Source: Antedon mediterranea (taxonomy: Eukaryota > Animalia > Echinodermata). From it: a stretch of 64,000 nt of DNA. The translations under genes were made by a program, and so were the position numbers. The stretch is taken from NCBI RefSeq assembly GCF_964355755.1, contig NC_092679.1:23791432-23855431 (forward strand), in the 5' to 3' direction. Every line of letters begins with the position of its first letter. Position 1 is the first letter of the stretch. Under the pieces are notes generated by a model that saw only the letters and a list, made by a program, of their open reading frames with translations, made no database searches and was not told the DNA's origin. Shown here one piece after another: positions 39,168 through 53,846 of the stretch.

Positions 39168-39540
39168 TTATCTATTCGTCATCATCACAATCACTTTCAC
39201 TGTCATCACTCCAAGGTTGGTCATCATCGATTTCAATCCATAGTTTAATGGGCGTAGGTTTTGTGTTGGCTGAGGAGTATGAGCGTGTCTCCACATAATA
39301 GATACATAATTTGCCCTCAACAGATGCTGGGTGATTGTGATTTCACATGGTGGCAATGACGAACAGTTGATCTTCTTGACTTTCTTCTTTCCAGTTTTCA
39401 TTTTGCGAAACGATTGGTACCTGGCCTCATTAATACTGTTCATGCTTTTAAACCCATATATCTTGCATACATAGGCAGTGACTGCGGGTTTGTCCATCCT
39501 GTCACCACAAAGCGATCGCAATGACTTGCCTTTGCGGTAA
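39168..39540 (-). pseudogene. Remnant of Academ-type transposon protein (XPG/H3TH-associated C-terminal region)
   Basis: LPPCEITITQHLLRANYVSIMW..PQP..PLNYG motif, preceded by an internally deleted FYRKGK. There is no authentic start, and the end is frameshifted. Confidence 0.65.
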
Positions 39541-39772
39541 AATCCAGTATCATTACAGTGTGATTATAATCAAATTGGTTTTATTATATCGTGTATTCTG
39601 TTCAGCTAGTAACAATGGAATATGAGGAATGTACAATATTTAGTTATTTAATGCATACAGCCAGTAAACTCGATGTCTTTGCTCATTGTGCTTTTACAGT
39701 GTGTCGGTATGCAAAATATTCGACCTGGGTTCAGTTGGAGATAAATAACGATATTTAATTTGGTCCAGTGTT

Positions 39773-39908: not shown

Positions 39909-41934
39909 TTATTAATGTAACAATTTTAAATTTTACTTGGGCAGTTGGGCAGTAAAATAATGTGCAATAATCGATACAGTAGTCGATCCATTATGGATAA
40001 GTAACGATATTTAATTTGGTCCTGAGTATGTTGCAGATACCACTGTCTAATGTTAGTACAGTAACAATTTAAAATTTGACTTGGGCAGTTATAGTAAAAT
40101 AATGTGCAGTAATCAATACAGTAGTCGATCCATTATGGATAAATAACGATATTTAATTCGATTCAGTATTATTAATATTAATTAATGTTGCCTTTTATCA
40201 GATATCACTGTCTAATGTTAGTACAGTAACAATTAAAAGTTTAACTTTGGTTCAGTTAAAGTAAAACAATGTGCAGTAATCGATACAGTAGTCGATCCAT
40301 TATGGACAAGTAACGACGTTTAAAATGTTGTCAGATTAAGTTTTTTGTTGGCTTTTATCAGTCTAATTCACATAAAAACGGTTACTTTTTTTTAGTAATA
40401 GTGTGCAATCGATTATAGTCTAATCTATACCTTACCAATTCCCTAAGTGATTATGTTGAATTCGAACTATTATTTACTTTACTATTATGTTATGTTATGT
40501 TAAAAAATGTAGCAAATTTAGATTTCGTTGCCTTTTTTCATAGACATATTATCACTAGTGTCTAGTGTGTAATTAAAACAATATTTAAATCGAGTTATAA
40601 TAATAATGCACAATAATCGGTACCGGTGTCGATCATTATGAGTGTAATTATTTAGTTTATCTGAAAAATATTCTTAAAGTATATTATTTTGATCGAAATA
40701 ATGATTTTGATATAATATTGATTGTTCAAAATGTTACCCTAAAATACAAATCTGCTGTTGGTTATTTGTGTTTTTTTAAAGTAAATAAAATAAAAGTCAC
40801 TCGTTATCGTAAATGTGTTTGTATTATCGACATTGTTGATCACGAATGGAGCAAAAAAGAGAGAAAGAGAGAAAAAAATGATTCATACTTCATGGATAAA
40901 CCCATTTTGGGCGAGTTTCTAAGAGTTTGATGTTTGATGATTTGGTACAGCAAACAACTGCTCTCTTTATTTATTGTTTTATCATTCTGCTGTGTATTTA
41001 TTGTCAGTCTGAGTCCGTATCACGTATTTCTAACTCAGCTGAACGCCATAAGACGACATACGCGCCGAGTATATAGCCGAATAGGGGGAATCTGCGGACC
41101 TTTAGGACTGCTGTCTGAGCTTATGTACAGGATAAAGTTGCTGTCATTGGTGTTTTTGTCATCCCCAATATGTACTGCTGCCATTAAAAAAAGATTCAAC
41201 CTTGTATCGCTTCACATGAATAAACCCATTTGGGCGTGGCCCTAAAATGTTGCTGTTTGGCGCCCCGTACAGGATAAAGTTGCTGTCATTGGTGATGTAA
41301 TCATTAGTAGCCCACTGCGAATGATATCCAATAAAGTTTATCCTTGTATCGCTTCACATGAATAAATGCATTTTTACCCCCCTATGTTATGATCCCCACA
41401 GGCCCCATGTACAGGCTGTGACCCGGCAGCAATATCGAATATTGCATCTCGCCCTAATACGCACCTAACTACATCATCAAACATTTTGTATCTTTTCACA
41501 TGAATAAATCTTCCGGGCGCCCGGTCTAGTCACGTATACATATTTCATTAAAGGAGTGGCGAGGGCTGATCAAGTTTTTAATTAATAACTTTCATTCATT
41601 CATTTATATCAGTGGATTACATATAAAATATACATAGAAATTATGTTCGCTCTGAGATATACAAAATCAGATAAGTAAAAAACAATTAAAAAGTGTCGGA
41701 TCACTCTTGTACGACGGTATATGACAAGATTATTCAGTGTCCGAATGGCAGCTGGATAAAAAGCTGTTACGAAGTGTAAGTAGGAGGATTATTATGTTCA
41801 TACGTCGTCGCTCATACCTTTGATCTTTATTAGGCCTACACATGTTCTATATTTATAGATAATATTTCCTGCCTACAGGTGTAAAAACATTTTATATAAT
41901 TAGAAACTTTTATATCAATAAACCATGATATTTT

Positions 41935-42035
41935 TACGGAAGCCCATTCGGGCCACAAGTTAACTATATTTTAAAAGCTGTTATCTGGCGGCCGCCACTT
42001 AATTATCTGGCGGCCGCCAGATAATTAAGTGGCGG
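41935..42035. mobile_element. Truncated copy of the NotI-repeat MITE
   Basis: Matches the left end of 47543-47854. Confidence 0.8.
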
Positions 42036-42404
42036 TTTCAACATGGCTACGTTTTGTTCTAAAAAATGTAACAGTTGATTCGCAGCGTTCTATAGAGGGC
42101 CGCGCTTAGAGACACGGAATTCAATGATGGTGTTTGTTTGATTGGCAGCAGTGCTTCAGTATAGGCAAGCGAGTTGGAAAATCGTTTGATGTCACCGTCG
42201 ATGCATATCCTTCTATTCCTTAATCCATGGGTATACATAAAAGCCATAATGCTTCTCATTTTAAACTAACATTTACTCTGTACAGTAATAATGCTTATTG
42301 AAATTGCAAGCGTAAAAAAAAGACACAATGATGAGAAGTTCTAATACGATGTCTGCATATCAAGCAAAATATGTATGTGAATCCCGAATATGATGACGTT
42401 TCCC

Positions 42405-43140
42405 AAAATCGTCATCCCTCTGAAGTTTTCAAATTTTCAGAAGAATTAGTCATACCAATCATAGAGAATGTTGACAGGATAGTGCCAGAAGGCTACGGCG
42501 CAATGGTGAAGCAGCTTTTATATAGAGCTTTGGGAGAACTCTATACTTATTTACTGATTTATTTTCGAAACAAATGTTCTCAGAATGATGTAGCCCTGTA
42601 CGAAAATAAACCTCTCCATTACTACACATTAGGAGCTGAAATGATCTTCCATGATAAATGGTATGACCAAGGTGCAGGTGGGAAAGCTCATGTAATAATA
42701 CACCATTACTTATTGGGCAATTCGGAAGCATTGCAAAAGGAACTTATGGAGTTTGAACCAATACTCATTGAAATAAAGACAATCACTATTTGATGAATAG
42801 ACTGAGTAGTATTGGCTTTAGGCCAGGATCATATCTAATGCTGAACGCCTGGGCCATGGATGAGAAGTTTCATACATTTGCCAAATCTAAAATGTGGTTT
42901 CGTGTAAATCCTGTCATACTTGTTTTGTATATAAAGGCCAAAGTATCATTTAAGGATGGCGACCTAGATAATGTATCTGCGATTGAGAAGAAAATGAAGG
43001 CATGTTTGAAGAACATTCTGGGCGTTCATTTACGTGATGTCACAAAAGCATTGATACGTACACATTATAGAAGTTGAAGCACTAGAGGTAACGAGAATGC
43101 TATACTCTCCTCACAAATTGTAGTAGACCTGATAGGGTTG
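42405..43140 (+). pseudogene. cGLR paralog A: 5'-truncated relic containing only part of the C-terminal helical domain
   Basis: Homology to the other paralogs starts abruptly at RHPSEVFKF (~42410). A 1-nt deletion near 42772 (GAAATAAA vs GAA AAT AAA) and a second frameshift near 43055 disrupt it. No Mab-21 domain is seen upstream. Confidence 0.85.
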
Positions 43141-44838
43141 AATGATAACAATATATAAGACTCATTGCCACAATCGACGTAATGGATTAGAGTTAAATAC
43201 TGATAAGCACAGTATCGACGACACAAACGCTTTTAATTCAAGGAGCAGAGTTTCATTTTCTCTGTTACTTAACCTTCATAATATCTTGAGCAATTGTGTT
43301 TGCCTTGCCTTGTGGACAAATAAATAAACTATGGGACAATGTAGCAAATACTATACGTATATGCGTATTTTATTATTCTAATTTATACAATTTTAGTCGT
43401 GATTACATATGTGTGCATTATATGTAACACAAGTTCATTACCACCCCGAAGAGTCCAAAAGATATTGGAAAGGTTAAACAATAACCTACGCTGTGATGAT
43501 AATTGACAATGTTATCAAAAATAATAGTTAATAATTAACAATGTAATATTGTAATTAGCATAAATATATCTGAACTTCAACCCGCTTGTAGGCCTACATG
43601 TCCTTTCAAATAAACAAATAAATAATCCGAACTCTTTTGAAAAGCTGCTTCGCGGATCTTTACTATCAACATTATATTACTAGTTTAAACAAAAATAATC
43701 ATATTATTATTATTGAAAATTGACATCCTGTTCAAATAGAATTGTCTATTTTAGTTTGTAAATGTATGAATCGAACGATGGTGAGAGAATGTGTTACTGC
43801 TGACGTATTGTCTCTCTCGGTCCATGCTCGGTCCGACAATGTGTAAACCTTTCTTAAGAAACCATTAAAGTCATAATTATCATTTCAGCCATAATGCTTC
43901 TCATATTAAATTAGCAGTTAATGAAAAATGTAAGACATTCTGATTTCATGTGAACTCAAAATTTAAGTCAAATGATTTTTTTCACATCCCCAACTGCGAT
44001 GAAGCCAGAATACTAGACAGAGAAAAGCACACAGAGTGAGAGGGATTGAAAAAGATTTGTAAGATAGGCCTAGTACTTTTCCTTTATATTTACCTAAGGC
44101 AAGCCAAGATATGAGCACTTTAATTTCCATTATACTGGATAACAAGAAATCTGTATCTGTATGCGGCAATAGAACAAATAATTGTGATGGATTAATGAAT
44201 AGTCATTAATCCATGGTTATATACAAATTTTTAGTTTTTTCCACTTTTTGTTTTAACATTATCATTAGCTGTTAGTATAGATTGCATAGGCTTTGTCCAT
44301 GTTTTAGGAATAGCTACCGTACAATTATTGTACTATGATATATATCAAGAAATCAACACATTTATATTGAACTATTTATATAATAGAATACTACATTCGT
44401 CATTTTAGCAAATCCTTAACATACTACATTTTTGCCACTATCATAGTAACATTTTATAAAACAAATGTTGACTTGTAATTATAACTGTTATACCATAATA
44501 CTTCATTGCTGAACGTTATGACCTCATTTATTTGCTTAAATGTAGATGTCATCTTACTGGGTAAACACTCAATTGACATGCTAATCATATTATACTGCTG
44601 GGCCACAATAAATAACGTTCTTTGTATTATCATTCACATTTGGATTCTAGGGTATAATTTAATAATGTACTTTGGAACATCCGGGTTTGTTCCAAGCTAT
44701 TTTACTACACAAGTCGCAATTGTTACAGAGCTGTTGACCATGACAATCAAAAGCTATACAGTACTGTTATATTATTCATAATAGTGTAGCCTAGGAAGTT
44801 TTGTTTATTGTACATCAGTAGAGAATCAGAAATACATC

Positions 44839-46950
44839 ATGAGTGAGAACATGCAACAGAAAACAAATCAAGAATTAGAAATATTTGCCAGCAGCATCAT
44901 TGAGCTGAAATCAGTTGGTAGATCACGAAGAATCATCGAAGCTACTGTTGGACAGGAATTTTTAAATTGTATGTCAAAAGTATGCTTACAGTTGCCAGTA
45001 CGTGCCGATAATATTTTGTCTGGAAGTGTATTTGATGGAATGCCTGACGAAATTTGCGGTGACATCGACCAAATGTTGATTTTTGAAATGATATTTCCAG
45101 TTGTTCGGTGGCCATTTCAAGCCGTAGTCACCAATCATGAATGTGGGTATGTAATGGCTGAGCATAATCCAAGTCATCCAGCCTACCTGGGACTTAAGGT
45201 TGTTGACAAACAGTTCCTGCATGAGAACATTCAAATTACTGTTGAAAACGGGTATATGATGTCAACCAGCTTCTTAAATGTATGTAAATACTATGATTTA
45301 GAGGAAGATGGGCTTCGTGTATATAAGACACAAGGTCCAGCAACTGTATCAGCATTACAAGCGGACCAAGTATTCGGAAAAACGAGAGACATAGTTTTCT
45401 GTTTAAAATGTCAATCATGGCCGCCTATCACTGATGATTTCTTTACTAGAGAGAGGTTAAACAAGTGGCCATCACAAGAGCTGTTGAACAGTATTTCCGA
45501 TTTAGATTGTCTTGTAGTGGCAGTTGGACACCCTTCTAGTGCATTTTCAAAAGAATTTGAATGGCGATTGTCTTTTTCTGTAGCGGAAAAGAAACTCATG
45601 CACGAAATGTGTGGACCATACTTCAACTGCATGATAGCACTCAAGGCACTTAAAAACAAGCATTTTGTACCCAGTGATCCTGACAAACCAACGCCGTTCT
45701 GCTCCTATTTCATAAAGACCGCCTGCTTGTGGATGTGTGAAATGTTCCCACATAAAGATGGCAGTAACATGGACTTGATTAGAAAAACGTTGGACTGGCT
45801 TATTGATTGCTATAAACAAGGGAATCTGCCTCATTACTTTATTCCCAGACAGAATTTAATCGGACATCTTTCAAGCGAACTCTGTGAGGAAACGATGACA
45901 AAACTGACAAAATTAAAAAGAGATCTGTGGAAGATGGTAATGTCTAGTCATGTTTTTATTGACCATTCAGTGCTTAATGTTATAGACAGTGTGTGTAATG
46001 CACTACGTATCACTGGAGTAACAGTATCTGATGACTATACAGCACTTGAGAATATTTTACTGAACCACCCAATGGCAAAGTCAACTCGTGTTATGGTGAA
46101 TTATCTGCTATCCAGTGGAAATCAGCTCTACATAAAGTTAGACAATTTAGAAACTTCGAAGATGACAGGAATGGATTTAATAGAGGGCAAGTTTATAAGA
46201 CTTGAACGTTTGTTTACACAAGGTCATCATCCCTCTGAACTTCATAGACTTCCAGAAGAAATCATCATGCCACTTATTGGGAAAGTTGGCGGGATAGTTC
46301 CAGAAGGCTACGGCGAAATGGTGAAGCAGCTTTTGTATAGATCTTTGGGAGATTTGTACACTTATTTGTTGATTTATTATCTGAGCAAGTTTTCTAAAAA
46401 AGATGTGGTTCTGTACGAGAATAAACCGCTCCATTACTACAAATTAGGAGCTGAAATGATCTTTCCTGATAAATGGTCCGACCAAGGTGTGGGTGGAAAA
46501 GCTCACGTAATAATATACCATTACTTAATGGGGAATTATGTACAATTGAAAAGAGAACTGATAGAGTTTGAACCAGTACTCGTTGAAAATAAAGACTTTT
46601 TGATGAACAGACTGCCTAGTATAGGCTTTTCGTCAAGGTCATATCTAATGGTAAATGCCTGGGCCATTGATGAGAAATTCCAGCAATTTTTCAAATCTAG
46701 ATTGATGTTTCGCGTCAATCCTATAACTCTTGTTTTGTATATTAAGGCCAGAGTATCACTTAAGGATGGCGACCTAGAAAATGCGTCGGCAATTGTGAAG
46801 GAAATAAAGTCCCGTTCGAAGAAATGTGATGTCACAAAGTCCTTGATTGAAATTATAGAAGTTGAAGCACTAGAGGTAACGAGAATGCTATACTCTCCTC
46901 ACAAGAAAATTGTAGTGGACCTGATAGGGGTGGATGATTACAAGAGATAA
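44839..46950 (+). CDS. cGAS-like receptor (Mab-21 nucleotidyltransferase, cGLR) paralog B, 703 aa, with C-terminal TPR-like helical region
   Basis: Uninterrupted ORF. Motifs: SGSVFDG..GDIDQM (GS plus DxD), third acid RDIVFC, WPP, EWRLSFSVAEKKL, SYFIKTACLW and LPHYFIPRQNLI. Confidence 0.92.
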   Translation: MSENMQQKTNQELEIFASSIIELKSVGRSRRIIEATVGQEFLNCMSKVCLQLPVRADNILSGSVFDGMPDEICGDIDQMLIFEMIFPVVRWPFQAVVTNHECGYVMAEHNPSHPAYLGLKVVDKQFLHENIQITVENGYMMSTSFLNVCKYYDLEEDGLRVYKTQGPATVSALQADQVFGKTRDIVFCLKCQSWPPITDDFFTRERLNKWPSQELLNSISDLDCLVVAVGHPSSAFSKEFEWRLSFSVAEKKLMHEMCGPYFNCMIALKALKNKHFVPSDPDKPTPFCSYFIKTACLWMCEMFPHKDGSNMDLIRKTLDWLIDCYKQGNLPHYFIPRQNLIGHLSSELCEETMTKLTKLKRDLWKMVMSSHVFIDHSVLNVIDSVCNALRITGVTVSDDYTALENILLNHPMAKSTRVMVNYLLSSGNQLYIKLDNLETSKMTGMDLIEGKFIRLERLFTQGHHPSELHRLPEEIIMPLIGKVGGIVPEGYGEMVKQLLYRSLGDLYTYLLIYYLSKFSKKDVVLYENKPLHYYKLGAEMIFPDKWSDQGVGGKAHVIIYHYLMGNYVQLKRELIEFEPVLVENKDFLMNRLPSIGFSSRSYLMVNAWAIDEKFQQFFKSRLMFRVNPITLVLYIKARVSLKDGDLENASAIVKEIKSRSKKCDVTKSLIEIIEVEALEVTRMLYSPHKKIVVDLIGVDDYKR

Positions 46951-47542
46951 AGCTGATAGATCGTACGCCAATGCAAAGGATTATTGGTAGGCTAAAGGTC
47001 CAGATGCTTCCTTTTCAACTCCTGTCACGAAACAGAGTTCTGCAGACTATCAATTTCTAGCATAATGGTTTGATGTGCCCAACAGGACTGTAAGTGGGTT
47101 ACATGGATTACAGATAACTCTTATTACCACTACTGGTTAACATTCATATCCACCTCAGGCCCACAATAGTATTGTAGAACAGCTGCTTGATTGTTAGTGT
47201 CTCTCCCGTTAAATAAAGTCATATTATATTAAACTAGCCTCATATTTCTATAATCCTCTGCTACACTTTACGATTTCTTATGGAAGGATTCTCTGTACCC
47301 TGTTATACTCTAAATAATACCTGTTCGGACAACTCTTTACCAAAAATCTTTTAAAACCGTCAATATTCCCCTCCTGACATTCTAAGGAGCTTCGTTAATG
47401 ATACAATGTATTTTAACAATCTGTAACATTTTACAAAGTTAAATAATTTGACATATATTTCTACCATGTCTTTTTTATTGTGGTTGTCAATCGTTTAATA
47501 TATTTTATATTTAGCGTTGTATGTATTATTTCTTTAAAAATA

Positions 47543-47854
47543 TACGGAAGCCCATTCGGGCCACAAGTTAACTATATTTTATAAGCTGTTATCTGGCGGC
47601 CGCCACTTAATTATCTGGCGGCCGCCACTTAATTATCTGGCGGCCGCCACTTAATTATCTGGCGGCCGCCACTTAATAATTGGTACATATCCCGTCACGT
47701 GACATGTACGTGCATTGGATCAGAGGCGATGTTGCATGCAATAAAAGGCATGATTGCCTGATAATTAAGTGGCGGCCGCCAGATAATTGAGTGGCGGCCG
47801 CCAGATAACAGCTTTTAAAATATAGGTAACTTGTGGCCCGAACGGGCTTCTGTA
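47543..47854. mobile_element. MITE with ~65-bp TIRs and internal 22-bp GCGGCCGC-containing repeats
   Basis: TACGGAAGCCCATTCGGGCCACAAGTTA... / ...TAACTTGTGGCCCGAACGGGCTTCTGTA. There are four direct and two inverted TTATCTGGCGGCCGCCACTTAA units, and TA at both ends. Confidence 0.85.
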
Positions 47855-48210
47855 CAATATAATCGTTTAGATTATATACTTCTTTTAACCTCTCCGATAC
47901 CTTAGGACTTTTCGATGATAGACTTGGGTTACATAAATTGTGCAAATGTAATCAAAGATAATGGTATAAAGTGGAATAATATGAAAATGTCTAGGTACAG
48001 TATTTGATATATATTTTATAGTGAATTGTCTTTGTCCACAGGCCATGAAATTCATTTGTCATACAATAGTTGCTAAAATTATTATAAAGTTGGCGAAATG
48101 TTGCTCTATATAAACTAAGACTCATTGGTAGTTTTACATTGACTCCACACGATCGACTGTGGCAATGAGCATTCTGTTATGGTCATTCAACCCTTTCGGG
48201 TTCACTACAG

Positions 48211-50249
48211 TTATGTTATAATTTCAATTAATGTCTTTGTGACATTACGTAACGGAATACTCCACATTATCTCCAAACGCGAATTCATTTTTTTTACAAT
48301 CGCGGATACATTTTCCGAGTCTCCGTCCTTAAGTGATACTTTGGCCTTTATATAAAACACGAGTATAATTGGGTTCACGAGAAACCACAGCCGAGATTTG
48401 GCAGATTTCTTGAATTTTTCATCTATGGCCCAGGTATTCAGCATTAGAAATGATCTTGAAAAAAAGCCTATACTAGTCAGTCTATTCATTAAATAGTGAT
48501 TGTCTTTATTTTCCACGAGTATTGGTTCTAACTCCATAAGTTCCTTTTTTACTTCTTCATAATTGCCCATTAAGTAATGGTGTATTATTACATGAGCTTT
48601 CCCACCTACACCTTGGTCAGACCATTTATCAGGAAAGATCATTTCAGCTCCTAATTTGTAGTAATGGAGAGGTTTATTTTCGTACAGAACCACATCAGTT
48701 TGAGAACATTTGTTTTGAAAATAAATCAACAAATAAGTATACAGTTCTCCTAAAGACCTATATAAAAGCGGCTTCACCATTGCGCCGTAGCCCTCTGGCA
48801 CTATTCCTTCAATACCTTCAATTATTGGTATGACGATTTCCTCTGCTAGCCTAAAAACCTCAGAAGAACGACGGCCATCTCTTATAAATCGTTCAAGCAT
48901 TGAAGCAGTTCCCTCTAATAGTTTAATACCGGCCATCAACGATGTTTTTACATCAGCTAATCTTCTGTACAAGAAACTTCCTGCACATAACCGAGAATTC
49001 GTTTTTTCAAGTTCAACTGTGGCCTTTGGGTGGTTGAGTAGCATGTTTTCAAGTGTTGCATAATCATCAGATTCAGTTACTCCACTGATTTCTAGGGCGT
49101 TGCACATATCGTTTACAACCCTAGGTAAGATTGGATGACGCCTGGCGTGACTTGACATTACCATCTTCCACATATCTCTTTTAAATACTGCCAGTTTTAT
49201 CCCAGTTTTATCCCCGTTTCCTCACAAAGTTCTCTTGAATGATGTCCAATTAAATTCTGTCTGGGAATAAAGTAATGAGGCAGCTTCTTTTGTTGATAGC
49301 AATCAATAAGCCAGTCAAGAATTTTTCTGATTAAATCCATGAGACTGTAATCATTATTTGGGAATGTTTCGCACATCCACAAGCAGGCTGTCTTTATGAA
49401 ATAGGAACAGAATGACGTTGGTTTGTCAGGATCACTTGGTACAAAATGCTTGTTTTTAAGCGCCTTGAGTGCTATCATGCAGTTGAAGTATGGTTCACAC
49501 ATTTCATGAATAAGCTTCTTTTCTGCTACAGAAAAAGACAATCTCCATTCATTGTCTTTTGAATCGGTACCAGGGTGTCCAATTGGCACTACAAAACAAT
49601 CTAAATCAGAGATCGTATTCAAGAGGTCTTGTGATGGCCACTTGTTTAGCCTCTCTCTAGTAAAGAAATCATCAGTGATAGGCGGCCATGATTGGCATTT
49701 TAAGCATACAACTACGTCCCTCGTTGTTTTGAGTATACTGTCTATTGGCGCTGCAGAAACATTCGATGGACCTTCTGTTTTATATACACGAATCCCACCT
49801 TTCTTCAAATCATGGTGTAACGCGTCTATGAAGTCGGTTGACTTCATATACCCGTTATCAACAGTAATTCTAACATCTTCATGCAGAATGTCTTTGTCAA
49901 CCACCTTAAGTTTCAGGTACGCTGGATTACTTGGATTAGGCTCAGCCATTACATAACCACATTCATGGATGTTGACTACGGCTTGAGATGGCCACCGAAC
50001 AACTGGAAAGATTGGCTTAGTCATCATTTGGTCGACGTCACCGCATAAATTGTCAGGCATTCCTTCGAACATACTCCCAGACATAATATTTTCGTTTGGC
50101 AAGCATACCTTTGATAGACAGTTAAAAGTTTGCTGTCCAACATTAGCTTCGATGATTCTCAGTGATCTACCAACTGCTATAAATTCAATGATGCTGCCGG
50201 CAAGTCTTTCCATTGCTTGATTTGTTTTCCTGTCAATGCTATCACTCAT
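48211..50249 (-). pseudogene. cGLR paralog C, split into a 350-aa Mab-21 ORF (49197-50249) and a 320-aa C-terminal ORF (48211-49173)
   Basis: An 11-bp tandem duplication, CCAGTTTTATC (49191-49201 and 49202-49212), shifts the frame relative to paralog D. The catalytic motifs SGSMFEG, DVD and RDVVVC are intact. The last ~25 codons are also lost by a deletion near 48215. Confidence 0.8.
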
Positions 50250-51749
50250 GATGACTTTCTGATTATTTCTACTCAGGACATTAACAAAACTTTCTAGCCT
50301 ACAATATGTTTGTTAATATCATAGAAGATTGGTGATTTCACAATGTCGAGGCTAAAATAGCTGAAAGTAACTCAGAAGTTCCAAAGTCCATTTTATTAAA
50401 ATCTACTCTTGATCAGATAAATTATATTAATACAAATAACGTTATGTATTGTGTCCTAATATATTATATAGTACGTCAATTAAGTGTTTAACCAGTGTAA
50501 AAATGTGAAATTCGAGTCTCGGTTGGAATAACTTTTCCTTTTATAAAACAATGGTCATTCGTTACTTGTAATAGTCCTGTAGACAAATGATGTCATCCAA
50601 ATTTGGAACCCATAATCTTCTGTTTGATATACAGGCTTATTCTACCATTACTTCTAGTGTCTGAACGTTAAATAAGCGTTAGATTCAAAGTAAAATAAAT
50701 GCGAATTTAAAATGAGTAAAAAAATGGCTTTCTGAATGTATGTGATTTTAATAGTTTCTTAACAATTAAAGTTTGCAGTGTCTGACTGAGAGAGGTAGTG
50801 TATCATCATCAATGACGAAAAGCGTAGCAGTAGCAAATGCTCTCGTCATCGAGTTGCAGAGCGTAATAGCGACCATAATAACTAATGCATAACACCGTAG
50901 TCAGAGCCATCCGATTCATCCAGCTACAATAGACCAGCAATACATTTTAGTACTTATACAGTAATACATATTCATCCAGAAGCAGCATTTTGAAGAATTT
51001 GAGTCATTGATTAGTTTTATTTGCAAGGTCATGTACAAGCGGGTTAAAGTTTAGATACATTTATATGTGTTTACATTGTAAAAAGATCCGTGAAGCAGCA
51101 TTTCAAAATATTTATTTATACTGAATATGATATTTATACATTGTTAATTATTAATTATTATCTTTCATAACATTCTCAATTCTCATCATTGTTCCTAAAC
51201 GAAATAACCAATGATAACCAACATAATGGTTCAAATATTGAACTTGTTTAACCTCTCCAATACCCTTAGGAGGACTATTCGGGGTGATAACTTTTAATGG
51301 ACATAGTGGTTACATAAATGCGCAAATGTAATCACGGGTATTTTATTTGTTTACAATGCCGTGAATTATATTGGCATACAGTTTGATCAAAATTGAATAT
51401 GAAGGTTAAGTAACACTCAGAAAAGAATAAAAATATGTAGAGCTACAAAATTACTCTGAATGAAAAATGATATGGCCGTAAATGCCACAATTCATCTACT
51501 CGCTTCTCGATTTAGTCTTTAAAAATAGTGTGGGATATCTACCCGACTGATCCGCAGTCAGTAGTGGGAAGCAGTTACATCTGAACATTTTATAAGAGCC
51601 AGTTCAACAAGTTTGAGAAATATTGTTGTACAAACTAAGTCTCATTTAGTTTTAAGAAGTTCCTGTATTCGTAACAACAGAGAACTGCTCTTTGAAATAA
51701 CAGCATCTGTGACGTCAAGCTTCTTTATCAGTATTTTAACTCTAATTCA

Positions 51750-53846
51750 TTACATTGACGCCACACTAACTTTCTTGTTAGGAGAGTATAGCATTCTTGT
51801 TACCTCTAGTACTTCAACTTCTATAATTTCGACCAATGTCTTTGTGACATTACGCAACGGAACACTCCCCATTATATCCAAACGCGCATTCATTTTCTTC
51901 ACAGTCGCGGATGCATTTTCTAGGTTCCCATTTTTGAGTGATACCTTAGCCTTTATATAAAGCACAAGTATGATAGGGTTCACGAGAAAAAACCACTGTT
52001 GAGATTTAGCAAATGTTTTGAACTGTCCATCCACGGCCCAGGCATTTAACATAAGAAATGATCTTGAAAAAAAGCCAATACTAATCATTCTATTCATCAA
52101 ATAGTGATTGTTTTTATTTTCAACGAGTATTGGTTCAAAATCCATAAGTTCCTTTTGCAATGCTTCCGAATTGTCCATTAAGTAATGGTGTATTATTATA
52201 TGAGCTTTCCCACCTGCACCTTGGTCAGACGATTTATCAGGAAAGATCATTTCAGCTCCTAATTTGTAGTAATGGAGAGGTTTATTTTCGTACAGAGCCA
52301 CATCATTTTGAGAACTTTTGCTCCAAAAATAAATCAAAAAATAAGTATAGAGATCTCCCAAAGCTCTATATAAAAGCTGTTTCACCATTGCGCCGTAGCC
52401 TTCTGGCACTATTCCTTCAATACTTTTAATAATTGGTATGACGATTTCCTCTGCTAGCCTAAAAATGTCAGAAGAATGACGGCCTTCTCCTATAAAATGT
52501 TCAAGCATTGAAGCAGTTCCCTCTAATAGTTTAAATCCTGCCATCATCGATGTTCTTACATCCTCTGAATTGTTGTAAAAGAAACTTCCTGTGCATATCT
52601 GAGAATTCGCCTTTTCAAGTTCAATTGTGGTCCTTGGGTGGCTGAGTAGCATGTTTTCAAGAGTTGAGTAGTCATCAGATGCAGTTACTCCACTGATTTC
52701 TAGGGCGTTGCACATATCGTTTAGAACCCTAAGTAAGACTGGATGACCCCTGACGTGACTTGACATTACCATCTTCCACAGATATCTTTTAAATACTGTC
52801 AGTTTTATCGTCGTTTCCTCACAAAGTTCGCTTGAAAGATGTCCGATTAAATTCTGTCTGGGTATAAAGTAAAGAGGCAGATTCCCTTGTTTATAGCAAT
52901 CAATGAGCCAGTCCAGGATTTTTCTGATTAAATCCATGAGACTGTAATCTTTATTTGGGAATGTTTCGCACATCCACAAGCAGGCTGTTTTTATGAAATA
53001 GGAACAGAATGACGTTGGTTTGTCAGGATCACTTGGTACAAAATGCTTGTTTTTAAGCGCCTTGAGTGCTATCATGCAGTTGAAGTATGGGTCACACATT
53101 TCATTAATAAGTTTCTTTTCCGCTACGGAAAAAGACAATCTCCATTCAGTGTCTTTTGAATCGGTACCAGGGTGACCAGTTGGCACTACAAAACAATCTA
53201 AATCAGAGACCTTGTTCAAAAGCTCTTGTGACGGCCACTTGTTTAGCCTCTCTCTAGTAAAGAAATCATCAGTGATAGGCGGCCATGATTGGCATTTGCA
53301 GCATAAAACTACGTCCCTCGTGTTTCCGTGTAAATCGTCTATTGGCGATGCAGAAACAGTCGACGGACCTTGAGTCTTATCTATACGAAGCCCATCTTTC
53401 TTTAAATCATGGTGTAACGCGCCTAAGAAGTCGGTTGACTTCATATACCCGTTATCAACAGTAATTCTAACATCTTCATGCAGAATGTCTTGGTCAACCA
53501 CCTTAAGTTTCAGGTAGGCTGGATGACTTGGATTATGCTCAGCCATTACATACCCACATTCATGATGGGTGACTACGGCTTGAGAGGGCCACCGAACAAC
53601 TGGAAAGATTGGCACATTCATCATGTGGTCGATGTCACCGCATACAATGTCAGGCATTCCTTCGAACATACTCCCAGACATAATATTATGGTATGGCAAG
53701 CATAGCTTTGATAGAAAGTTGAAATTTTGCTGTCCAACATTGGCTTCGATGATCCTAAGTGATCTACCAAGTGCCATAAATTCAATCGTGCTGCCAGCAA
53801 GTCTTTCCATTGCTTGACTTGTTTTCTTGTCAATGCTGTCACTCAT
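51750..53846 (-). CDS. cGAS-like receptor (Mab-21 nucleotidyltransferase, cGLR) paralog D, 698 aa, with C-terminal TPR-like helical region
   Basis: Uninterrupted ORF. Motifs: SGSMFEG..GDIDHM, RDVVLC, EWRLSFSVAEKKL, SYFIKTACLW and LPLYFIPRQNLI. Confidence 0.92.
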   Translation of the reverse strand: MSDSIDKKTSQAMERLAGSTIEFMALGRSLRIIEANVGQQNFNFLSKLCLPYHNIMSGSMFEGMPDIVCGDIDHMMNVPIFPVVRWPSQAVVTHHECGYVMAEHNPSHPAYLKLKVVDQDILHEDVRITVDNGYMKSTDFLGALHHDLKKDGLRIDKTQGPSTVSASPIDDLHGNTRDVVLCCKCQSWPPITDDFFTRERLNKWPSQELLNKVSDLDCFVVPTGHPGTDSKDTEWRLSFSVAEKKLINEMCDPYFNCMIALKALKNKHFVPSDPDKPTSFCSYFIKTACLWMCETFPNKDYSLMDLIRKILDWLIDCYKQGNLPLYFIPRQNLIGHLSSELCEETTIKLTVFKRYLWKMVMSSHVRGHPVLLRVLNDMCNALEISGVTASDDYSTLENMLLSHPRTTIELEKANSQICTGSFFYNNSEDVRTSMMAGFKLLEGTASMLEHFIGEGRHSSDIFRLAEEIVIPIIKSIEGIVPEGYGAMVKQLLYRALGDLYTYFLIYFWSKSSQNDVALYENKPLHYYKLGAEMIFPDKSSDQGAGGKAHIIIHHYLMDNSEALQKELMDFEPILVENKNNHYLMNRMISIGFFSRSFLMLNAWAVDGQFKTFAKSQQWFFLVNPIILVLYIKAKVSLKNGNLENASATVKKMNARLDIMGSVPLRNVTKTLVEIIEVEVLEVTRMLYSPNKKVSVASM

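What the first reader, a model, noticed from the sequence alone, without database searches (positions are those of the whole stretch)
42405..53846. Tandem/inverted array of four cGAS-like receptors fused to an uncharacterised ~330-aa TPR-like C-terminal domain
Seen: two intact ~700-aa uninterrupted ORFs, one split copy and one relic. All three Mab-21 domains keep the GS motif, the DxD pair and the third acidic residue. The segment after SFSVAEKKL is short (..MHEMCGPYFNC..), so there is no vertebrate cGAS-type zinc-thumb insertion. The C-terminal half is predicted helical, with TPR-like patterns (LYRSLGDLYTY, PLHYYKLGAE, YHYLMGNY, LYIKARVSLKDGDLENA). Established: cGLRs are animal pattern-recognition nucleotidyltransferases that make cyclic dinucleotides for STING, and they are expanded in marine invertebrates. 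Inference: this is a lineage-specific receptor family in birth-and-death evolution, and the helical domain may be the ligand sensor or an autoinhibitory module. Ligand and nucleotide product are unknown and could be new.
Basis: partly seen in the sequence, partly recalled or inferred. Interest (0 to 1): 0.82.

Follow-up and report, generated by a model that had tools for sequence, protein, structure and literature searches.

The report
cGAS-like receptor cluster with helical tail
This is a cluster of four single-exon copies (two intact, one frameshifted, one remnant) of a cGAS-like gene, likely from a feather star and belonging to an already catalogued but untested family, whose unannotated helical tail is predicted to cover the usual DNA/RNA-binding face, so these proteins would likely sense something other than nucleic acid.

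Summary
Two intact ORFs (703 and 698 aa), one frameshifted copy and one 3' remnant are present. Each of the three Mab-21 domains keeps the GS loop and Asp triad and lacks the zinc thumb. The closest named relatives are feather-star (crinoid) proteins. The seven closest are already in the Li et al. 2023 cGLR catalogue; none was assayed. An AlphaFold model (pLDDT 87.5, pTM 0.88) gives a cGLR core (Z 24.8) plus a tail of about three degenerate TPR-like hairpins (Z 10-11.5, modest). The tail is not lineage-specific: it occurs in a sea anemone, a coral and an oyster, and more distantly in bivalve cGLRs. It was not annotated in the catalogue rows I checked. Only the expansion is crinoid-specific. 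Contigs of one sample carry both frameshifted and open forms of copies B and C, which fits birth-and-death turnover. The core is acidic (pI 5.5-6.0), unlike nucleic-acid sensors. Most likely these are cyclic-dinucleotide synthases gated by the tail and a non-nucleic-acid ligand; this is inferred and nothing was assayed. Verdict: new member of a known kind, with a useful lead on orphan cGLRs.

The parts
42401..43146 (+). Copy A, remnant: only the last ~240 codons (tail region), frame breaks near 42770 and 43058; the 5' part is absent from the window
   Evidence: tblastn; DNA alignment; a contig of run X2 has one extra base at 42770
44839..46950 (+). Copy B, intact single-exon ORF of 703 aa (P0001)
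   Evidence: model
44839..45933 (+). cGLR core of B (residues 1-365): spine helices 2-48, GS loop 62-63, D75, D77, D184, Mab-21_C helical lobe
   Evidence: Pfam; motif; PDB profile alignment; fold Z 24.8 to Cv-cGLR1
45964..46896 (+). Helical tail of B (residues 376-686): variable linker helices, then about three degenerate TPR-like hairpins (492-536, 551-583, 628-659) and a capping helix
   Evidence: secondary structure; TPR-protein matches Z 10.1-11.5; conserved positions
46068..46068 (+). Site of a 5-bp insertion in an alternative form of copy B; it would end the protein near residue 421
   Evidence: X2 contig of 603 nt against X1 contig of 598 nt with the same ends, same sample; stop position read from the shifted frame
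48211..50249 (-). Copy C, split in this sequence into 350-aa and 320-aa ORFs; 676 codons (stop included) without the duplication
49193..49214 (-). 11-bp tandem duplication that shifts the frame of copy C; present in one contig and absent in another of the same sample
   Evidence: X2 record 3 and X3 record 12
48211..48217 (-). Shortened 3' end of copy C (about 25 codons fewer than D); a related organism keeps 32 more bases here
   Evidence: runs X5 and X7
51750..53846 (-). Copy D, intact single-exon ORF of 698 aa (P0002), 66% identical to B and 84% to the first half of C
47543..47854 (.). Palindromic high-copy repeat (MITE-like) between the converging copies B and C; a partial copy lies at 41919-42035, upstream of the remnant
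   Evidence: self-blast; inverted repeat I24; high contig depth

Best explanation
These are cGAS-like receptor (cGLR) genes whose products are predicted to fold as a nucleotidyltransferase core plus a TPR-like helical tail that likely packs on the spine helix, so that a non-nucleic-acid ligand (likely a protein or peptide) would act through the tail to switch on synthesis of a cyclic dinucleotide, likely for STING. Shown: copy structure, catalytic residues, absence of the zinc thumb, acidic core, conservation of the tail in cnidarians and an oyster, and open and frameshifted forms in one sample. Predicted: the fold and a fixed core-tail arrangement. Inferred: tail position on the ligand face, ligand class, catalytic activity, product and immune role. 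The cluster arose by local duplication and inversion within one crinoid lineage and turns over by birth and death.
For: Core: Pfam Mab-21 and Mab-21_C above cut-off; the family profile hits Sp-cGLR1 at 2e-27 and cGAS at 6e-19; model matches Cv-cGLR1 at Z 24.8; GS plus triad in 44 of 45 aligned relatives. Tail: invariant D548 and conserved LGDxY, YYxxG, W608, D611, P628 positions. pTM 0.88 for the whole chain implies a confident domain arrangement. Three of six TPR-type matches begin at model residues 29-38 (the spine helix) and run to 683-703. Spine positions 30, 32, 34, 35 and 37 are 69-100% hydrophobic in the family. In human MB21D2 a C-terminal helix contacts the spine (PMC8410604, passages). 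Charge: first 350 residues have pI 5.5-5.95, against >8.5 for DNA/RNA-sensing cGLRs (10.1101/2023.02.22.529553, passage). The two long enzymes among the 15 named active in that screen (631 and 712 aa) are both in its unknown-ligand group, and the nine ligand-defined constructs are at most 519 aa. A related crinoid has 47 cGLRs and 3 STING genes. Turnover: dN/dS 0.34-0.54 between copies; window copies form one clade (100) inside a crinoid clade (99); alternative forms.
Against: No activity, ligand, product or expression was shown. I had no model coordinates, so the tail's position rests on first and last aligned residues only. TPR Z-scores of 10-11.5 are under the tool's caution level of about 13 for helical repeats. 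Pfam TPR was hit by 1 of 38 family members and by no window protein above cut-off. Six of 45 relatives have a basic core (pI above 8), and R28 is conserved on the spine, so some members may bind nucleic acid. The spacer between the second and third acid is 104-106 residues, outside the published 50-90. Of 11 constructs over 600 aa among screen samples 1-58 (3 of 8 parts read), only 2 are among the named active enzymes. STING was not shown for this organism (no genome held).
Confidence: 0.45

Rival explanations
1. Ordinary nucleic-acid-sensing cGLRs: the spine groove binds dsRNA or dsDNA, and the tail only localises or oligomerises the enzyme.
For: All cGLR ligands defined in the screen are nucleic acids. 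R28 is 89% and R36 69% conserved in the family. Six of 45 relatives have a basic core.
Against: The window cores are net acidic (about -8, pI 5.5-5.95) and have lost R36. The spine is hydrophobic on several faces. No zinc thumb.
Confidence: 0.2
2. Non-signalling or non-immune Mab-21 proteins (like MAB21L1, MiD51 or orphan MB21D2): they bind nucleotide or partners but make no second messenger.
For: MB21D2 and MAB21L1 match the model almost as well as active cGLRs (Z 23.1 and 21.1). MB21D2 showed no activity with the ligands tried. Most long constructs seen in the screen table are not among the named active ones.
Against: The triad is invariant across the 45-sequence alignment. Rapid duplication, remnants and frameshifted forms are typical of immune receptor families, not of developmental Mab-21 genes (own knowledge).
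Confidence: 0.2
3. The tail is an output or adaptor module that recruits a downstream partner, and the core is controlled by something else or is constitutively active.
For: TPR modules are generic protein-binding surfaces (own knowledge). One close relative carries an extra BIR domain after the tail. Six cGLRs in the screen were active without added ligand.
Against: A high whole-chain pTM and the spine-including TPR alignments point to tight packing on the core.
Confidence: 0.15

Closest known systems
Anneissia japonica ~700-aa cGLRs catalogued in Li et al. 2023 Table S1 (e.g. XP_033106383, XP_033120355, XP_033121068)
   Same: 43-46% identity over 88-97% of the length for the top seven, same core and tail, same long triad spacer
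   Different: Not one-to-one orthologues: the window copies form their own clade. None is in the assayed set. The tail has no domain row for XP_033106383.
Sp-cGLR2 (Stylophora pistillata XP_022802921) and Cv-cGLR2 (Crassostrea virginica XP_022344877)
   Same: Long (713 and 632 aa) cGLRs listed with only a Mab-21 domain and active with no known ligand. Sp-cGLR2 is acidic (pI 5.66) and makes 2'3'-cGAMP.
   Different: Whether their C-terminal halves are the same tail was not tested (table cells are cut at 400 letters). Cv-cGLR2 is basic (pI 8.3) and its product is unidentified.
cGLR-TPR fusions described by Li et al. 2023
   Same: cGLR core plus TPR-type helical repeats
   Different: Those were found by conserved-domain search. 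This tail escapes Pfam and the paper's domain table in the rows checked, has two insertions between the hairpins, and needed a model to be seen.
Human MB21D2
   Same: No zinc thumb, non-basic surface, C-terminal extension at the spine helix, orphan ligand; Z 23.1
   Different: MB21D2 has a short extension and is not known to be expanded. Here the tail is about 320 aa and the genes are multiplied.
Vertebrate cGAS, Drosophila and Tribolium cGLR1
   Same: Caged nucleotidyltransferase fold, GS loop and acidic triad
   Different: About 18% identity. Those have a basic nucleic-acid groove (and cGAS a zinc thumb) and no such tail.

Membership tests
cGLR (Li et al. 2023 criteria) | G[S/G] activation loop and three acidic catalytic residues | tested here: met
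   GS plus D75/D77/D184 in B and equivalents in C and D; they align with the cGAS loop and triad in the profile alignment
cGLR (Li et al. 2023 criteria) | Literal motif text: h[QT]GS, hydrophobic residue after the second acid, 50-90 residue spacer | tested here: not met
   LSGS/MSGS, polar residue after the second Asp, spacer 104-106. I do not treat the literal text as defining: the authors' own list includes seven relatives with spacers of 96-110 and no Q/T.
cGLR (Li et al. 2023 criteria) | Homology over both the NTase lobe and the C-terminal helix bundle | tested here: met
   Pfam PF03281 and PF20266 above cut-off; profile positions 36-334 align to cGAS
cGLR (Li et al. 2023 criteria) | AlphaFold model matches known cGLR structures | tested here: met
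   Z 24.8 Cv-cGLR1, 24.0 cGAS, 23.9 Sp-cGLR1 over about 320 residues, above the best CD-NTase at 15.6
cGLR (functional) | Ligand-dependent cyclic dinucleotide synthesis and STING activation | not testable with these tools
   needs biochemistry; no genome held to look for STING
Vertebrate-type cGAS | Zinc-thumb insertion | tested here: not met
   12 residues shorter at that place in the alignment to mouse cGAS
Nucleic-acid-sensing cGLRs | High pI (above 8.5) and basic ligand groove | tested here: not met
   core pI 5.5-5.95, full length 6.2-6.5; surface electrostatics were not computed
TPR repeat proteins | 34-residue repeats detectable by Pfam TPR models | tested here: not met
   no window protein above cut-off; 1 of 38 relatives hit TPR_1/TPR_2
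TPR-like alpha-solenoid (fold) | Stacked helical hairpins that superpose on TPR structures | tested here: inconclusive
   three hairpins in the model; six TPR-type matches at Z 10.1-11.5, under the caution level; the tail was not folded and searched alone

The most novel reading that the evidence does not exclude
A large, ancient class of 600-720-aa animal cGLRs (cnidarians, bivalves, crinoids), now counted as single-domain enzymes, carries an unrecognised TPR-like solenoid clamped over the spine helix. It converts the nucleic-acid sensor into a protein- or peptide-sensing receptor, which would explain many orphan and 'auto-active' cGLRs, and its copies segregate as null alleles within individuals.
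Probability: 0.3. Interest if true: 0.75.

Novelty: new member of a known kind. Interest (0 to 1): 0.42.

Why it matters
What activates most invertebrate cGLRs is an open question, and non-nucleic-acid ligands are suspected but unknown. This family gives a concrete handle: a conserved tail with invariant residues (D548, W608, D611), predicted to sit on the ligand face, that can be deleted or mutated. If the tail is as widespread as the profile matches suggest, the published 87% single-domain figure undercounts appended domains, and assays of trimmed cores would miss the regulation. The locus itself is ordinary for an invertebrate immune family.

Tried and rejected
Single-sequence AlphaFold failed (pLDDT 32) and used one of two jobs, so the tail could not be folded alone. 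The core-tail complex job gave no answer (score 0.00, alignment not used) and is not counted either way. Assembly error as the cause of the split in C was rejected: a contig carries the duplication letter for letter. Rescue by an intron is unlikely: 0 of 29 frame-restoring GT-AG pairs had a strong donor and pyrimidine tract. No RNA holder was listed. Run X8 ('RNA?' is a guess) has pieces on B and D and little on A and C, which I do not count as expression. The lack of X5 cover over the remnant proves nothing, and no listed X5 or X7 piece bridges the 11-bp site. The viral fold library gave one weak match (E 4e-4). One of the 34 tail hits (P0087, a 3334-aa repeat protein) is spurious by the tail profile. 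Of 31 other cGLR tails, 14 (seven groups) did not match the tail profile. Two alignment searches did not retrieve Sp-cGLR2, so it is not in the tree. The careful tree did not finish; the quick tree is used. Seven paper searches listed no study of crinoid cGLRs or of a cGLR tail mechanism; subscription papers are not covered. Earlier-findings look-ups returned nothing.
Full report
Observation. The window holds four related stretches and no others: remnant A (42401-43146, +), intact B (44839-46950, +, 703 aa), split C (50249-48211, -) and intact D (53846-51750, -, 698 aa). B and D are 66% identical; D and the first half of C are 84% identical. All are uninterrupted by introns. C is broken by an 11-bp tandem duplication at 49193-49214 and shortened at its 3' end. 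A lacks the first ~460 codons and has two frame breaks.

The core. B, D and the first half of C pass the Pfam Mab-21 and Mab-21_C cut-offs. GS, DxD and the third Asp are present in all three and in 44 of 45 aligned family members; the exception is cut at its N-terminus. The family profile hits Sp-cGLR1 (2e-27), cGAS (6e-19) and MB21D2 (1e-17) among solved structures; its alignment to mouse cGAS matches loop and triad and lacks the zinc thumb. An AlphaFold model built on 45 sequences (pLDDT 87.5, pTM 0.88) matches Cv-cGLR1 at Z 24.8, cGAS at 24.0 and Sp-cGLR1 at 23.9. The spacer between the second and third acid is 104-106 residues, longer than the published 50-90, but seven catalogued relatives have 96-110. 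I could not inspect the geometry of the triad because coordinates are not returned.

The tail. The model shows variable linker helices (376-460), then three helix pairs (492-536, 551-583, 628-659) with two insertions, and a capping helix. Six TPR-type structures match at Z 10.1-11.5, which is below the tool's caution level for helical repeats. Pfam TPR models hit 1 of 38 relatives and no window protein above cut-off. 'TPR-like' is therefore likely but not proven. The tail has its own conserved residues, including an invariant D548. Three of the six TPR matches start at residues 29-38, the spine helix, and end at 683-703. With the high whole-chain pTM and the hydrophobic pattern of spine positions 30-37, this suggests that the tail packs on the spine. 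In cGAS the spine forms the nucleic-acid groove, and in MB21D2 a C-terminal helix contacts it (PMC8410604, passages). This placement is an inference from alignment ranges.

Relatives. Of 71 hits, 21 are named Anneissia japonica and 5 Antedon mediterranea, so the window is likely from a feather star. In a quick tree of 62 core domains (chosen from about 130 stored proteins, fragments and near-copies left out, SH-aLRT only, midpoint root, no characterised cGLR included), the three window cores form one clade (100) inside a crinoid clade (99). Six of the nine rows labelled cnidarian there are unnamed and were labelled by similarity. The tail is older than crinoids. A tail profile finds Actinia tenebrosa (2e-30), Stylophora pistillata (4e-27) and the oyster Saccostrea echinata (2e-13), none of which was used to build it (E-values set for one million sequences). 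B aligns to the Actinia protein over residues 16-589. The Atlas model of the Actinia protein matches a mostly molluscan 729-aa cluster at TM 0.74 over 624 residues. Among 31 other cGLR tails, one group of 17 (including Mytilus, Crassostrea and Potamilus proteins) matches the tail profile at 89% probability, E 2e-6, against 0.3% for a reversed control; the other 14 do not match. Generic TPR likeness may contribute to that match.

What is in print. In Li et al. (10.1101/2023.02.22.529553 / PMC9980059; I saw passages, section 5 and parts of supplements 1-5, not the figures or the large PDF) cGLR-TPR fusions are a named class and 87% of cGLRs are called single-domain. All seven top hits that I looked up (7 of the 21 Anneissia hits) are in Table S1, and A. 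japonica is listed with 47 cGLRs and 3 STING genes. The Actinia and Stylophora members are also there, each with only a Mab-21 row in the domain table. None of these, and no protein of the five other deuterostome genera I searched for, is in the assayed set. The two long enzymes among the 15 named active (Sp-cGLR2, 712 aa, acidic, 2'3'-cGAMP; Cv-cGLR2, 631 aa, unidentified product) have no known ligand. Whether they share this tail I could not test. Passages of PMC10732462 and 10.1101/2025.09.04.674280 had nothing on such a tail, and seven searches (listings and abstract starts only) showed no paper on it.

Turnover. Pairwise dN/dS between copies is 0.34-0.54 by domain, highest in the N-lobe (0.65) and linker (0.69) and lowest in the helical lobe of the core (0.27) (simple counting); positive selection was not tested. 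Contigs from runs of one sample show two forms at two sites. At 49086-49278 one contig carries the 11-bp duplication and one lacks it, both otherwise identical to C. At 45852-46449 one contig matches B's frame and one has 5 extra bases, which would stop the protein near residue 421. The simplest reading is heterozygous null alleles, with B open and C broken on this haplotype and the reverse forms on the other. Phase was not shown, and an extra near-identical copy or a pooled sample is not excluded. A related organism keeps 32 more bases at the 3' end of C.

Mechanism. The cores are acidic (pI 5.5-5.95), whereas DNA- and RNA-sensing cGLRs lie above 8.5. I judge it most likely (0.45 for the whole chain) that these are active cyclic-dinucleotide synthases whose tail covers the usual ligand face and responds to a non-nucleic-acid ligand. 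cGLR identity alone I put at about 0.93. The rivals are nucleic-acid sensing (0.2; six of 45 relatives have basic cores and R28 is conserved), a non-signalling Mab-21 protein (0.2), and a tail that acts only as an output adaptor (0.15). Activity, ligand, product, expression and immune role are all untested.

Verdict. It is a new local expansion of a catalogued, unassayed cGLR clade. The value lies in the unannotated conserved tail and the test it offers for orphan cGLRs. Interest 0.42.

Noticed in passing
window:24839-26155 (+): 438-aa ORF with galaxin-like repeats (Pfam PF24748, E 3.5e-43)
   Followed up: no
window:32499-35739 (-): Reverse transcriptase ORF (RVT_1, E 1e-30) and an upstream 293-aa ORF with no Pfam match; likely a retroelement
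   Followed up: no
window:36918-41529: Long inverted repeat (about 1.7-kb arms, 87% overall, up to 98% at the ends) around a short ORF at 39168-39563; looks like a foldback DNA transposon just upstream of the remnant copy
   Followed up: no
window:56072-58668 (+): Chain of overlapping intronless ORFs ending in a frameshifted protein-kinase domain (Pfam E 8e-15); the two upstream ORFs (232 and 320 aa) have no Pfam match
   Followed up: partly
window:10236-12090: Satellite of 37 copies of a 50-bp unit, 97% alike, with strong G skew
   Followed up: no
proteins P0005, P0091, P0128: Crinoid relatives with extra domains: BIR after the tail (P0005), PF00209 in a 1363-aa model (P0091, possibly a merged gene model), PF07177 with a C-terminal Mab-21 domain (P0128)
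   Followed up: no
model m8237f21eac4b against BFVD: One weak match to an uncharacterised 389-aa Hyperionvirus protein (A0A3G5A6S9, E 4e-4, TM 0.45 by target)
   Followed up: no
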